DNA of 64,000 bases from Escherichia coli (GTDB lineage: Bacteria; Pseudomonadota; Gammaproteobacteria; Enterobacterales; Enterobacteriaceae). Below, in pieces: positions 4,828-25,053 of this stretch. Every line of letters begins with the position of its first letter. Positions within the stretch are counted from its first letter, which is position 1. A model generated the notes under the pieces. The model was not told the DNA's origin. It made no database searches and worked only from the letters and a program-made list of their open reading frames with translations. A program made the translations under genes and the position numbers. The stretch is from the NCBI RefSeq assembly GCF_030384885.1, contig NZ_CP128613.1; one strand, written 5' to 3'.

Positions 4828-6045
4828 TTACAGCTGATGATAACCAGAAAGGAAACGCGCGAACTTACTCAAAGACAGCTCGATATCATCAACACGTGGT
4901 AGCGTGACAATGCGGAAGTGATCCGGCCACGGCCAGTTGAATGCTGTCCCTTGAACCAGCAGGACTTTTTCCTGCAACAGGAAATCCAGCACCATTTTCT
5001 GGTCGTCGTGAATGTTAAAGCGTTTAGCGTCGATTTTCGGGAACATGTACAGCGCACCGCGCGGTTTCACGCAGGAAACGCCCGGAATATCGTTGATCAA
5101 TTCCCACGCACGGTTACGCTGTTCATAAAGACGCCCGCCGGGTGTAATAAATTCACTGATGCTCTGATAACCGCCCAGCGCGGTTTGAATGGCGTGTTGC
5201 GCAGGAACGTTAGCACACAGGCGCATCGAAGCCAGCATTTCCAGACCTTCGATGTAACCTTTAGCGTGTTTTTTCGGCCCGTTCAGCACCATCCAACCCT
5301 GACGGAAGCCCGCAACGCGGTACGTTTTCGACAGTCCGTTAAAGGTTATGGTTAGCAGGTCTGGTGCCATCGCGGCAATTGAGTGATGCTCGGCGTCGTC
5401 ATAGAGAATTTTGTCGTAAATTTCATCGGCGAAGATAATGAGATTATGCTGACGCGCAATCTCCACTATCTCCATTAAAAGCTCTTTGGAATATACCGCG
5501 CCGGTTGGGTTATTTGGGTTGATAATAACGATCCCACGCGTACGAGGCGTAATTTTAGCGCGAATATCATCAAGGTCCGGGAACCAGTCAGAGGATTCAT
5601 CGCAAAGATAATGCACCGCTTTACCGCTGGAGAGCGAAACCGCTGCGGTCCATAGTGGGTAATCAGGTGCAGGAACCAACATTTCGTCCCCGCTGTTCAG
5701 CAATGCCTGCATTGCCTGAACGATAAGCTCCGATACACCATTGCCGATGTAAATATCTTCCACGGTAACATCACGCATGCCACGAGCCTGGTAGTGCTGC
5801 ATGATGGCTTTACGCGCGGAGTAAAGCCCTTTGGAATCGCAATACCCTTGAGCGGTAGGCAGGTTGCGAATCACGTCAACGAGGATTTCATCTGGCGCGT
5901 CAAAACCGAACGGGGCAGGGTTGCCGATGTTCAGTTTCAGTACCTTGTTACCTTCTTCTTCCAGGCGTTTTGCTTCTTTCAGCACCGGACCACGGATGTC
6001 GTAACAGACATTCTCTAATTTGCTGGATTTTTCAATGGGGGACAT
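4828..6045 (-). CDS. alaA: Glutamate-pyruvate aminotransferase AlaA (405 aa)
   Basis: 405-aa ORF; class I/II aminotransferase fold with the PLP lysine region (TFNGLSKTYRVAGFRQGW). Confidence 0.9.
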   Translation of the reverse strand: MSPIEKSSKLENVCYDIRGPVLKEAKRLEEEGNKVLKLNIGNPAPFGFDAPDEILVDVIRNLPTAQGYCDSKGLYSARKAIMQHYQARGMRDVTVEDIYIGNGVSELIVQAMQALLNSGDEMLVPAPDYPLWTAAVSLSSGKAVHYLCDESSDWFPDLDDIRAKITPRTRGIVIINPNNPTGAVYSKELLMEIVEIARQHNLIIFADEIYDKILYDDAEHHSIAAMAPDLLTITFNGLSKTYRVAGFRQGWMVLNGPKKHAKGYIEGLEMLASMRLCANVPAQHAIQTALGGYQSISEFITPGGRLYEQRNRAWELINDIPGVSCVKPRGALYMFPKIDAKRFNIHDDQKMVLDFLLQEKVLLVQGTAFNWPWPDHFRIVTLPRVDDIELSLSKFARFLSGYHQL

Positions 6046-6961
6046 GAATCTTGACCTTTTTTGCTGTTATCGCCACTCCCTGCCGTGGAAGTCAGCTTAG
6101 AACAATGTACTCCCCCAGGACGGCGTTTTGAAGGTCTGCAGAATAAGATTTTGCAAGAGGGGAAGACTCGATTGTGCTGTTAATAACTTAATAATGGCAA
6201 AATAATGAGGTGTATATGCTTAGTAATTAATGTTATGTAGTGAATTGTTCTGATTCTTAATTGTGAGTGTGGTTTTTTTATCTGTAAGATAATTGTTTGA
6301 AAATGCCTCGTTTAAGAATTCACTAATGAATCGTGATGATGATATTTCCGCATTACGGAGAGTTTAACAGCGTGATGATTTCCGAGGTGTCGTAATGGGT
6401 GCAAGGTGTGAAACTATTGTTAAGCGGGATTAATGAATGAGGATGATGCTAATTAATTATTATTTAATATTCAAAAAGGTTTTGTTGTGCTTATTAATAA
6501 TAGAAGATTACTTTGCCTAACATAACATAACTTTGCATCAGATAATTCGCAATGACCCTTATAAATAAAAGGTTTTTGGGGTAAAATGCTCGCATAAATG
6601 ACGGATCCCTGCTCTTGATGCCGCCTCACCATTGCTGTTTGTACGTGTTCGCGTATGACCAGCGATGCTGCACGAGAGTGGAACAAGGACTCACATTTAC
6701 ATTTATACAAACACGCGCATGTCATAAATACAAAAGAGTGAGTAACTTAATAGATATGCGATTCCTGAAGATATATTCTGTGATCTACTTCAGGCATTAT
6801 AACGGAACAATGTGAGTCGCTTTTTTAGTGCAACTCATATGCATTTTTACTTTCGTCCGGGTTCCGGATGAAACTGCCAGGGAGGCACATTACAAATGGA
6901 ATTGCTTGTTTGTGTGTGCACAGCATTAACCAGCTCAGTACGAGCCGCCAGTAAGTGATAA

Positions 6962-20400: not shown

Positions 20401-20630
20401 GTTGTTGGCTGAGTGAATATACCCGGCGTTGCGCCGGGTCTGTGAACTAAGAATAAATTTTAGGTAACTGTTCCTGAAGTACAGGCGTCATCGGCGAAGT
20501 CAGACCGGATACCGCCAGCGCACAGCAACCGGAGCGTACTTAAGTACGTGAGGATTGCGAGCACTGCCGGGATTCGGGCTGGCAAGTGAGATAGCCTGAG
20601 CAGGAGTAAATATAAGGGACATACTTAGCT

Positions 20631-23624: not shown

Positions 23625-23640
23625 GGTTGAGTGTTGATGT

Positions 23641-23671
23641 AAAAAAACCGCCGATTTCGGCGGTTTTTTTA
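23641..23671. terminator. Bidirectional rho-independent terminator after nuoN
   Basis: AAAAAAA-ACCGCCG-ATTT-CGGCGGT-TTTTTTT: stem-loop flanked by an A-run and a T-run. Confidence 0.8.
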
Positions 23672-23766
23672 TGGTGTTAATTGTTGCTAATAAAAAGAAC
23701 ATATAAATCTATATCTGCGTCGAAGTATAATGATTCACTTCCTAATACAATACACAAGGAAAACCA

Positions 23767-24483
23767 ATGGAATGGTTAAGTGAGATTCGCACACTTCGGG
23801 AGAACGTACCTGTCGGTATCCAGGCTGCCAGGCGTTTGTTAGAGAAGACGGGTGGTGATGTTGATGAAGCCATTAAGTTGTTTCATATTGATCAAATCAA
23901 TATATTGACGGCAAAAGCAGACGTCAGTCATCAGGAAGCAGAGACTGTTCTGCTGGAGACAAACTATGATATTGCAGAAGCTCTACGGCGTATTGATGAA
24001 CAGCGCTATACACTGACGGAATTGATTTTGCGTAAAAATAAGGATACCGGAGATGCTTTAAGTAACATAGAATTAGCAATAGCATATGAATGGAATCTGA
24101 CATGCCAATTCTGGTTTGGTTTTAAGGCATTCCAGTCGCTACCTCCACAATTACAAGCCTTTATGCTGGTATGTGAATGGCGTAACTATTGGGGATGGGA
24201 AGGGCTGGATAGTGCGTTATATTATGAGATAGAAAATGTCCCCCAACAATTACAGGTAGTAGGCTTAGATGAAATGGCTGAAGTTATTGTTGTGGCGAGA
24301 AATCGTTATGATGAGTTAAGAGTACAAGGCAAAGACCATAATAACATCATTAAAGATGATAAATTTAAAAAATTTATGAAGCACTGTGAACAACTGGATA
24401 GTGAAGCCGACGCTATATTACTGCAATTTGTAAAGGATAATATTGAGATTTTCCCACGTCGCCACAACGGACACGATTTATAA
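23767..24483 (+). CDS. Hypothetical 238-aa protein (possibly YfbN) with two N-terminal UBA/EF-Ts-N-like helical motifs; low GC
   Basis: 238-aa ORF; length matches my recollection of YfbN but the local gene order does not clearly match what I remember, so no symbol is assigned. Confidence 0.6.
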   Translation: MEWLSEIRTLRENVPVGIQAARRLLEKTGGDVDEAIKLFHIDQINILTAKADVSHQEAETVLLETNYDIAEALRRIDEQRYTLTELILRKNKDTGDALSNIELAIAYEWNLTCQFWFGFKAFQSLPPQLQAFMLVCEWRNYWGWEGLDSALYYEIENVPQQLQVVGLDEMAEVIVVARNRYDELRVQGKDHNNIIKDDKFKKFMKHCEQLDSEADAILLQFVKDNIEIFPRRHNGHDL

Positions 24484-25053
24484 AAAATTATCCCAAAATT
24501 GAACAGGCTTTTTATCTGCCTGATAATTTCCAGGTAATGACAGGTTGAATTCCGTTTTTATCCAGGATGACAGATCGTTGCCAGCACAGATGATATCGCT
24601 GTTATATATTGAATACACGGGATTACCACCAGTATACGAAGATGTAGACATATATCGATGCTTATATAAAAGAATCAAAACTGGGCATTGGTTTGAGATT
24701 TTATCAAAATGATCTTTACGTGAATCTAAATTAAGTAGTTTTTCTCCCCATATATCAAGCCAAAAATTGTTTTTCATAACATCGTATAATATACCATCTA
24801 AAGGAATTTTTAATGTCTGTTTCACCTCGCGTTCCATTTTTCCAGAGTGTAGAGTTTGCCGCCAGTGAATAAAACCTTCAGTCGTTGGCAAAGCATTATG
24901 CAAAAATGCTTTACAATCGAGTGGAAAGCGGAAACTAAAAGTTTGCTCAATGGCAGTAATCTCGGTCTCACTCAAACCTGCATAGAATATAATTCCTTGA
25001 GCTTTTAATTTGTTAACCAGAAATGTGTAGTCCAATGCTTTTTTCAATTTCAT
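24478..25053 (-). CDS. Hypothetical 191-aa protein, SMI1/KNR4 (SUKH-1)-like; low GC
   Basis: 191-aa ORF; N-terminal motif LSETEITAIEQTFSFRFPLDCKAFLHNALP resembles the SUKH/SMI1-KNR4 signature; convergent with the 238-aa gene, 3' ends overlapping by 6 bp. Confidence 0.55.
   Translation of the reverse strand: MKLKKALDYTFLVNKLKAQGIIFYAGLSETEITAIEQTFSFRFPLDCKAFLHNALPTTEGFIHWRQTLHSGKMEREVKQTLKIPLDGILYDVMKNNFWLDIWGEKLLNLDSRKDHFDKISNQCPVLILLYKHRYMSTSSYTGGNPVYSIYNSDIICAGNDLSSWIKTEFNLSLPGNYQADKKPVQFWDNFL

What the first reader, a model, noticed from the sequence alone, without database searches (positions are those of the whole stretch)
23767..24483. 238-aa protein with two tandem UBA/EF-Ts-N-like helical motifs, convergently overlapping the SUKH-like gene
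Residues about 5-40 (SEIRTLRENVPVGIQAARRLLEKTGGDVDEAIKLF) and about 44-78 (INILTAKADVSHQEAETVLLETNYDIAEALRRIDE) look like tandem UBA-type three-helix bundles. The C-terminal 150 aa is unrecognised. Its 3' end overlaps the convergent 191-aa gene by 6 bp. A UBA-like bacterial protein two genes away from ElaD, a deubiquitinase-like protease, hints at a small eukaryote-interaction or ubiquitin-related islet, though it could instead be a nucleic-acid or protein-binding module.
Basis: inference. Interest (0 to 1): 0.45.

Follow-up and report, generated by a model that had tools for sequence, protein, structure and literature searches.

The report
YfbN: tandem UBA-like plus DMP19-like protein
This gene is a diverged copy of the uncharacterised E. 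coli accessory gene yfbN; its protein joins two small UBA-like helical bundles to a DMP19-like helical domain and most likely acts by binding and blocking another protein, not as part of a ubiquitin system with the nearby ElaD.

Summary

About 177 clusters (50% identity) keep this architecture, in Enterobacterales and mainly Bacteroidota. None is in Pfam and all are unnamed. I found no conserved neighbour gene.

In E. coli yfbN is an accessory gene (978 of 5426 complete genomes) in a low-GC, H-NS-bound variable islet. elaD is in 4473 genomes, is absent beside yfbN in Superficieibacter-type loci, and is a pseudogene beside an intact yfbN in ETEC6335. The ubiquitin/ElaD islet idea is therefore not supported.

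The gene is mosaic: the UBA module is 92% identical to K-12 and the C-domain core about 52%.

K-12 yfbN was among the genes re-tested in the blocker-validation assay against the retron-Sen2 toxin RcaT. My best reading, at about 0.4, is a non-enzymatic stoichiometric binder or blocker with a swappable target-binding C-domain. Interest is modest.

The parts
23638..23673 (+). Intrinsic terminator of nuoN; left boundary of the low-GC islet
   Evidence: Terminator scan: 16-pair stem followed by a T run. GC drops from about 0.58 to 0.34-0.42 here.
23756..23760 (+). Shine-Dalgarno AAGGA, 6 nt before the ATG
   Evidence: Read directly from the sequence.
23767..24483 (+). yfbN allele, 238-aa CDS including the stop codon
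   Evidence: ORF list. 100% match to NZ_CP027579.1 WP_000455116.1. 78.6% nt identity to K-12 yfbN. dN/dS 0.23.
23773..23892 (+). UBA-like bundle 1 (residues 3-42), closest in sequence pattern to the EF-Ts N-terminal domain; loop P15-V-G17-I
23893..24006 (+). UBA-like bundle 2 (residues 43-80), NAC/Dcn1/HYPK-type
   Evidence: AF2 helices 43-51, 55-64 and 69-80. NCBIfam NAC C-terminal UBA at residues 42-76, E 4e-4, below cut-off. Pfam UBA_HYPK at 45-75. hhalign against bundle 1, E 4e-5.
24004..24036 (+). Conserved linker helix RYTLTELILRK (residues 80-90), the most conserved stretch of the family
   Evidence: Alignments A1, A3 and A4. It was the only stretch conserved enough to seed the genome scan.
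24013..24456 (+). C-terminal DMP19/DUF4375-like all-helical domain (residues 83-230), with the core motif EW.NY..WEG and ending in ...I..FP
24049..24396 (+). Diverged allelic cassette (codons about 95-210): 51-70% nt identity to K-12, against 90-98% for codons 1-90
   Evidence: Sliding-window identity and dS. The window-type C-domain is shared with ETEC6335 (93%) and E. fergusonii.
24478..24483 (.). TTATAA: back-to-back stop codons, the 6-bp convergent overlap
   Evidence: Sequence and ORF coordinates. The same junction is kept in K-12.
24478..25053 (-). Convergent 191-aa gene, a probable SMI1/KNR4 (SUKH) family protein; intact in only 13 of 5426 E. coli genomes
   Evidence: Pfam SMI1_KNR4 E 0.0065. 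PGAP names the 89-90% identical alleles 'SMI1/KNR4 family protein'. K-12 keeps only a 3' remnant of about 283 nt. The AF2 model failed (pLDDT 37).

Best explanation
The gene encodes a soluble, all-helical, non-enzymatic protein with two modules. At the N-terminus is a five-helix tandem UBA-like unit. A conserved linker helix follows. The C-terminus is a domain of about 145 residues with the fold of the Neisseria protein DMP19 (DUF4375). The most likely mode of action is stoichiometric binding: the C-domain grips and blocks a target protein, as DMP19 does by occupying the DNA-binding face of its partners. The UBA-like unit serves as a constant protein-protein adaptor, or possibly a self-association module. 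The C-domain is the part that sets specificity and is exchanged between alleles as a cassette. In E. coli it is a silenced, horizontally acquired accessory gene in a variable islet that also holds a SUKH-type (immunity-type) gene. This fits an orphan antitoxin- or immunity-like blocker used in conflicts with toxins or defence effectors. Shown here: the ORF, its identity as yfbN, the two-module fold, the family and its distribution, the mosaic allele structure, and the independence from elaD. Inferred: binding as the mechanism, the division of labour between the two modules, and the conflict role. The target is unknown.
Against: The DMP19 link is fold-level only. No Pfam or PDB sequence match is significant, and a profile search did not reach any DUF4375 protein. 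The C-domain is only mildly acidic (pI 4.97 here, family median 5.3, two members basic), whereas DMP19 has pI below 4.5, so DNA mimicry is not a conserved property. There is no conserved partner, toxin or secretion gene next to family members, so the immunity-like context is suggestive only. Zhang et al. 2012 do not list DMP19, YfbM or UBA among immunity families. Retron blockers in that screen also included general factors such as clpA, clpX, dnaJ and infB, so blocking may be indirect; the tested allele was K-12's, whose C-domain is only about 52-55% identical to this one. The SUKH gene is convergent, not co-directional as in classical polyimmunity loci.
Confidence: 0.4

Rival explanations
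1. YfbN is a ubiquitin-binding protein that works with the deubiquitinase-like ElaD in a small host-interaction islet.
For: UBA-like fold. The hydrophobic-Gly-hydrophobic loop (V16-G17-I18) resembles the MGF loop of ubiquitin-binding UBAs (inspection; the comparison is from my own knowledge). elaD lies 2.8 kb away. The best PDB sequence hit of the C-domain profile is Wolbachia CidA, the partner of a CE-clan deubiquitinase, but only at E 0.29.
Confidence: 0.05
2. YfbN is an EF-Ts mimic. Bundle 1 binds EF-Tu or another translational GTPase as the EF-Ts N-domain does, so YfbN modulates translation or decoys toxins and phages that use EF-Tu.
Against: Eukaryotic UBA domains score as well or better. 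The EF-Ts core domain is absent. The knockout effect did not carry over to asparaginase. There is no direct evidence of EF-Tu binding.
Confidence: 0.1
3. YfbN is a DMP19-type DNA-mimic regulator. It titrates a DNA-binding protein (a transcription factor or HU) as an ordinary regulatory switch, not as part of a conflict system.
For: The DMP19 fold match. DMP19 blocks NHTF and HU (PMC3384305, PMC5722371). This allele is acidic, with the C-domain at net charge -8 and pI 4.97.
Against: Acidity is not conserved: family median pI is 5.3 and two members have pI about 9.3. No transcription factor is a conserved neighbour. The patchy accessory distribution and the allelic cassette swapping fit a variable target better.
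Confidence: 0.15
4. In E. coli the gene is a silenced passenger with no current function.
For: It is H-NS-bound and very weakly expressed (PMC5797941 and PMC9068703). It is absent from 82% of genomes. Its neighbours decay: the SUKH gene and yfbK survive only as remnants, and elaD and yfbL are frameshifted in some strains.
Against: Both deep alleles keep intact reading frames with dN/dS 0.13-0.23. 968 of the 978 E. coli genomes with a match cover at least 80% of the gene. Full-length homologues persist across phyla. Overexpression gives a phenotype.
Confidence: 0.1

Closest known systems
E. coli K-12 YfbN (b2273, WP_000455114.1), an uncharacterised protein
   Same: Same gene family and length (238 aa), with the same yfbM, yfbL, elaD and rbn genes downstream. 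70% aa identity overall and 92% in residues 1-95.
   Different: The C-domain core is only about 52-55% identical, a deep allelic type shared with E. fergusonii and 12 other E. coli genomes. Here the gene directly follows nuoN, with no yfbO or yfbP. The convergent SMI1/KNR4 gene is intact here, whereas K-12 has only a remnant.
Neisseria meningitidis DMP19 (PDB 3VJZ/3WUR; Pfam PF14300, DMP19-like/DUF4375)
   Different: 12% identity. There is no significant sequence match (best Pfam E 5.3e-3 in a relative, nothing for this protein). YfbN is less acidic. It carries an extra tandem UBA-like module and a linker that DMP19 lacks. Its partner is unknown.
UBA-like domains: the TNK1 five-helix UBA, Dcn1, NXF/TAP-C, NAC and the EF-Ts N-terminal domain
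   Different: All sequence matches are below family thresholds. The host proteins have unrelated functions. Ubiquitin or EF-Tu binding was not tested.
Heterogeneous polyimmunity loci and orphan immunity genes (Zhang et al. 2012, PMC3482391)
   Same: Content varies from strain to strain. A SUKH-type gene is present. There is no adjacent toxin. Some Bacteroidota homologues lie in arrays of small unrelated genes, one with an ankyrin protein.
   Different: YfbN is not one of the listed immunity families. The genes here are convergent rather than a co-directional array. No cognate toxin is known.

Membership tests
YfbN family (unnamed; not in Pfam or NCBIfam) | Full-length homology to E. coli K-12 YfbN | tested here: met
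   70% aa identity over all 238 residues. The annotated K-12 yfbN matches at 78.6% nt over 100% of the gene.
YfbN family (unnamed; not in Pfam or NCBIfam) | Conserved signature: LR..(P)VG...A..LL...GD in bundle 1, the linker [RL][YF]T[LM]TE[RL]IL[RK], the core motif EW..Y..(W)EG, and a C-terminus ...I..FP | tested here: met
   All are present in the window protein. The nearly invariant columns are listed.
UBA / UBA-like superfamily | Compact three-helix bundle fold | tested here: met
   [not shown]
UBA / UBA-like superfamily | Significant match to a Pfam UBA-type model | tested here: inconclusive
   Window protein: UBA_4 E 0.034, UBA_HYPK 0.24. Among relatives: UBA_4 in 13 of 40 and UBA_8 in 6 of 40 at E<=0.1, and one at 8.2e-5.
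UBA / UBA-like superfamily | Binding of ubiquitin through the loop-1 hydrophobic patch | not testable with these tools
   Only the V16-G17-I18 loop can be read from the sequence. This needs ITC, NMR or a pull-down.
Elongation factor Ts | EF-Ts core/dimerisation domain after the N-terminal UBA-like domain | tested here: not met
   No EF_TS match in Pfam or NCBIfam. The C-terminus is DMP19-like instead.
DMP19-like / DUF4375 (Pfam PF14300) | Match to PF14300 at a significant level | tested here: not met
   No hit for the window protein. Relatives reach only E 5.3e-3 to 0.049. The PDB sequence profile search does not find DMP19.
DMP19-like / DUF4375 (Pfam PF14300) | The DMP19 all-alpha fold | tested here: met
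   [not shown]
DMP19-like / DUF4375 (Pfam PF14300) | Strongly acidic, DNA-like charge surface (pI below 4.5) and competition with DNA for a partner | tested here: inconclusive
   C-domain pI 4.97 and net charge -8 here; family median pI 5.3; two members have pI about 9.3. The surface pattern and binding could not be tested.
Polyimmunity / orphan immunity locus | A known immunity-family gene in the locus, and strain-to-strain variability | tested here: inconclusive
   The SMI1/KNR4 neighbour is weak in Pfam (E 0.0065) but is named so by PGAP. At least four locus configurations exist. YfbN itself is not a listed Imm family.
Polyimmunity / orphan immunity locus | Neutralisation of a cognate toxin | not testable with these tools
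   The only indirect evidence is that K-12 yfbN was in the RcaT blocker-validation set.
   978 versus 4473 of 5426 genomes. yfbN occurs without elaD. elaD is a pseudogene beside intact yfbN.

The most novel reading that the evidence does not exclude
YfbN-type proteins are a previously unrecognised class of modular, stand-alone toxin or defence-effector blockers. A constant tandem UBA-like adaptor docks onto a conserved cellular or effector component. It is fused to an exchangeable DMP19-like (or other) target-binding domain that is swapped between strains as a cassette. This would give bacteria pre-emptive protection against incoming or endogenous toxins such as the retron toxin RcaT.
Probability: 0.2. 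Interest if true: 0.6.

Novelty: new variant of a known kind. Interest (0 to 1): 0.35.

Why it matters
yfbN is one of the still-uncharacterised E. coli K-12 y-genes. The work gives it a concrete domain map: tandem UBA-like bundles, a linker, and a DMP19-like domain. It places the gene in a wider family that no library names. It describes the allele structure, with a constant N module and a swapped C-domain, and it ties the gene to an existing overexpression phenotype, the blocking of a retron toxin. Together these turn "function unknown" into experiments that can be done now: find the partner, swap the domains, and test toxin rescue. The work also removes a tempting but unsupported story, that a bacterial UBA protein works with the ElaD deubiquitinase. 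If the blocker reading holds, it would extend the short list of DMP19-like binding proteins and of orphan antitoxin-like genes.

Tried and rejected
1. ElaD/ubiquitin islet. Rejected on distribution.

2. Search for a conserved operon partner. I inspected about 14 independent loci and ran an all-against-all comparison of neighbour ORFs. Nothing is shared outside Enterobacteriaceae. The one exception is a DUF1877 (YfbM-family) gene near one distant homologue.

3. Anti-phage defence or phage origin. There are no PADLOC hits, no PHROG hits below E 0.08, and no viral structural match to the architecture.

4. Sequence-level bridge to DMP19. The PDB profile searches and a C-domain profile search of 5.8 billion proteins found none. 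Only sub-threshold Pfam hits exist.

5. The CidA hit of the C-domain profile (E 0.29). I treat it as chance.

6. Fold test of the 191-aa neighbour. The AF2 model failed (pLDDT 37), so its SUKH assignment rests on Pfam E 0.0065 and the PGAP name.

7. Positive selection as the cause of C-domain divergence. Rejected, because dS is saturated and dN/dS is 0.13-0.19, which points to old allelic replacement.

8. Structured RNA in the region. There are no Rfam hits between 22000 and 30000.

The repeat with 11 sequences returned only 6 loci, one of which is E. coli contamination in a Bacillota MAG.

10. Zhang et al. 2012 do not mention UBA, YfbM, DUF1877 or DMP19.

Full report
OBSERVATION. An AAGGA ribosome-binding site lies 6 nt upstream, and the nuoN terminator at 23638-23673 lies about 95 nt upstream. 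Its 3' end overlaps the convergent 191-aa gene (24478..25053, minus strand) by the six bases TTATAA. Each gene's stop codon is the complement of the other's last Leu codon. One detail in the finding is wrong. ElaD (27262..28431) is separated from this gene by three genes (the 191-aa gene, yfbM, yfbL), not one.

IDENTITY. The window is the chromosome of E. coli 2013C-4282 (100% match). The gene is a diverged allele of K-12 yfbN (b2273, annotated only as "protein YfbN"): 78.6% nt and 70% aa identity over the full length. A 98% identical protein occurs in E. fergusonii.

STRUCTURE. AlphaFold2 on eight close homologues gave a confident all-helical model (pLDDT 88.2, pTM 0.74).
- Residues 3-80 form helices 3-13, 18-27, 32-51, 55-64 and 69-80.
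- Foldseek against AFDB50 found full-length relatives, and a stand-alone "DUF4375 domain-containing protein" at E 1.2e-4 and TM 0.81.

Sequence evidence agrees with the fold evidence but is weak.
- Pfam gives only sub-threshold hits for this protein: UBA_4 (E 0.034), UBA_HYPK and UBA_HOIP.
- NCBIfam matches the UBA end of the NAC protein at E 4e-4, below its cut-off.
- A family profile hits the TNK1 UBA (E 0.021), the Dcn1 UBA (0.059) and, in register, the EF-Ts N-terminus (7-52 to 7-52, E 0.25).
- Scanning relatives one by one gives UBA_4 in 13 of 40 and UBA_8 in 6 of 40 at E<=0.1. One relative hits UBA_8 at 8.2e-5. DMP19 (PF14300) appears in four relatives, with a best E of 5.3e-3.
- The two bundles match each other profile-to-profile (hhalign E 4e-5, 32 columns in register).

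By the Pfam criterion it is not a DMP19 family member.

FAMILY. The word-indexed search saw almost only Escherichia. Exhaustive HMMER over 1.84 billion cluster representatives found 177 clusters (117 at E<=1e-10). Nearly all are 230-260 aa and match end to end. Where a source gives a name, it is "hypothetical" or "uncharacterized". Named hosts are:
- Escherichia, Superficieibacter and Leminorella (Enterobacterales);
- Chitinophaga, Hymenobacter, Chryseobacterium, Taibaiella, Aquimarina, Aureibacter and Thermoflexibacter (Bacteroidota);
- an Ignavibacteria MAG.

Conserved positions are L10, R11, P15, G17, L25, G30 and A35 in bundle 1; the linker RYTLTE[RL]ILRK (residues 80-90); the core motif EW..Y..WEG (W138, E145); and a C-terminal ...I..FP. 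Some proteins carry the same tandem-UBA module on a shortened C-domain or on an unrelated C-terminus with no Pfam match. The N module is therefore a portable unit.

CONTEXT. GC falls from about 0.57 in nuo to 0.34-0.42 across yfbN and the 191-aa gene. The nuoN-yfbM junction has at least four states in E. coli:
- empty, as in GF43, the one yfbN-negative genome I inspected; 4448 of 5426 genomes lack yfbN;
- yfbP-yfbO-yfbN plus a remnant of about 283 nt of the 191-aa gene, as in K-12 (about 955-960 genomes);
- yfbO-like, yfbN and the intact 191-aa gene, as in ETEC6335;
- yfbN and the intact 191-aa gene directly after nuoN, as in this window.

yfbN is in 978 of 5426 complete genomes, and the intact 191-aa gene is in only 13. 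PGAP names that gene "SMI1/KNR4 family protein". Pfam gives SMI1_KNR4 only at E 0.0065, and my structure prediction for it failed (pLDDT 37).

In Superficieibacter-type genomes yfbN again follows nuoN. It is followed there by different small convergent genes, and elaD is absent. In Leminorella it sits elsewhere, convergent with an M16 peptidase. In several of the Bacteroidota-type loci it lies in co-directional runs of small unrelated cytoplasmic genes (NUDIX, GNAT, DinB, DUF1801, RibD_C, UPF0167, ankyrin). In one case a DUF1877 (YfbM-family) gene lies two genes upstream. An all-against-all comparison of neighbours in 14 loci found no partner shared outside Enterobacteriaceae. No PADLOC, PHROG or viral-structure relative was found.

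ALLELE STRUCTURE. Compared with K-12:
- Codons 1-90 are 87-98% identical at the nucleotide level (aa 92%, dS 0.21). This is like the flanking genes nuoN (dS 0.17) and yfbM (dS 0.31).
- Codons of about 96-205 are 51-76% identical (aa about 52%, dS saturated, dN/dS 0.13-0.19).
- The last 28 codons and the downstream gene remnant recover to about 76-87%.

Across Escherichia the N module is 83-97% identical, but there are two deep C-domain types only 50-55% identical. The window type goes with the intact SMI1/KNR4 gene: ETEC6335 has a C-domain 93% identical to the window's. This is old allelic replacement of the C-domain core under purifying selection, not rapid positive selection.

LITERATURE.
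- K-12 yfbN is listed as H-NS-bound, lies in a predicted genomic island, and rose 2.8-fold on SlyA overexpression (PMC5797941).
- It is very weakly expressed (PMC9068703).
- Its knockout raised GFP yield but not asparaginase yield (PMC7376861).
[quoted passage not shown] 4A/4B). The text says all re-tested blockers relieved RcaT toxicity (bioRxiv 10.1101/2020.06.22.160242). Other blockers there were general factors (clpA, clpX, dnaJ, infB), so the effect may be indirect.
- DMP19 itself is an acidic all-alpha protein that blocks the DNA-binding sites of NHTF and HU (PMC3384305, PMC5722371).

MECHANISM. What is shown is a non-enzymatic, two-module helical protein with a constant N module and a swappable C-domain. 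It is accessory, silenced, and without a fixed partner gene. From this I infer a stoichiometric binder or blocker. The DMP19-like domain grips a target and sets specificity, and the UBA-like unit is an adaptor. The likely setting is conflict with toxins or defence effectors, as an orphan antitoxin- or immunity-like gene. My confidence is about 0.4 for the mechanism and about 0.9 for the architecture. DNA mimicry in the strict sense is doubtful. The C-domain is only mildly acidic (pI 4.97 here, family median 5.3, two members basic).

The rivals are an EF-Ts-like EF-Tu binder (0.1), a DMP19-type regulator of a DNA-binding protein (0.15), a silent passenger gene (0.1) and the ubiquitin/ElaD reading (0.05).

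NOVELTY. The gene is a known but uncharacterised y-gene. The family is unnamed and absent from Pfam and NCBIfam. The combination of tandem UBA-like bundles with a DMP19-like domain is, as far as these libraries show, undescribed. I rate it a new variant of a known kind, of modest interest (0.35).

Noticed in passing
L002 6718-6990 (K-12, between yfbN and yfbM); corresponds to window 24484-24770: K-12 and about 955-960 other E. coli genomes keep only the 3' 283 nt or so of the 191-aa SMI1/KNR4-like gene. The remnant has an 11-bp deletion and has lost the 5' 440 nt. It is an unannotated pseudogene remnant.
   Followed up: yes
window 27078-27152: A remnant encoding the last 25 aa of YfbK (88% identity) lies between yfbL and elaD, so the vWA gene yfbK has been deleted in this strain. 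RefSeq annotates a partial hypothetical CDS here.
   Followed up: yes
window 20401-20630 (nuoL-nuoM intergenic): The 230-nt spacer has no similarity to the 163-nt spacer of K-12. It contains GC-rich palindromes such as CCCGGCGTTGCGCCGGG and GTACTTAAGTAC, so a different repeat element seems to sit inside the nuo operon.
   Followed up: partly
L014 5057-5590: A DUF1877 (YfbM-family) gene lies two genes upstream of a distant YfbN homologue on a metagenomic contig, echoing the yfbN-yfbM neighbourhood of E. coli. This was seen in only this one distant lineage.
   Followed up: partly
proteins P0154, P0160, P0139, P0130, P0161 (no window coordinates): The tandem UBA-like module also occurs on proteins of about 200 aa with an unrelated C-terminus that has no Pfam match, or with a shortened C-domain. 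AFDB shows similar proteins in Flavobacterium, Capnocytophaga and Myroides.
   Followed up: partly
L027 (E. coli ETEC6335) 5331-6301 and 8237 onward: yfbL and elaD are frameshifted pseudogenes in this strain, while yfbN and the SMI1/KNR4 gene are intact. This is a fourth configuration of the islet, with a yfbO-like gene but no yfbP.
   Followed up: yes
[not shown]
   Followed up: partly
L006 (JAEWTL010000023.1, 'MAG: Bacillota bacterium'): In my searches this 2.8-kb MAG contig scores identically to E. coli K-12 for yfbP, yfbO, yfbN and the SUKH remnant, so it is very likely E. coli contamination. A 'YfbN fragment' assigned to Streptomyces antimycoticus in AFDB looks similar.
   Followed up: partly
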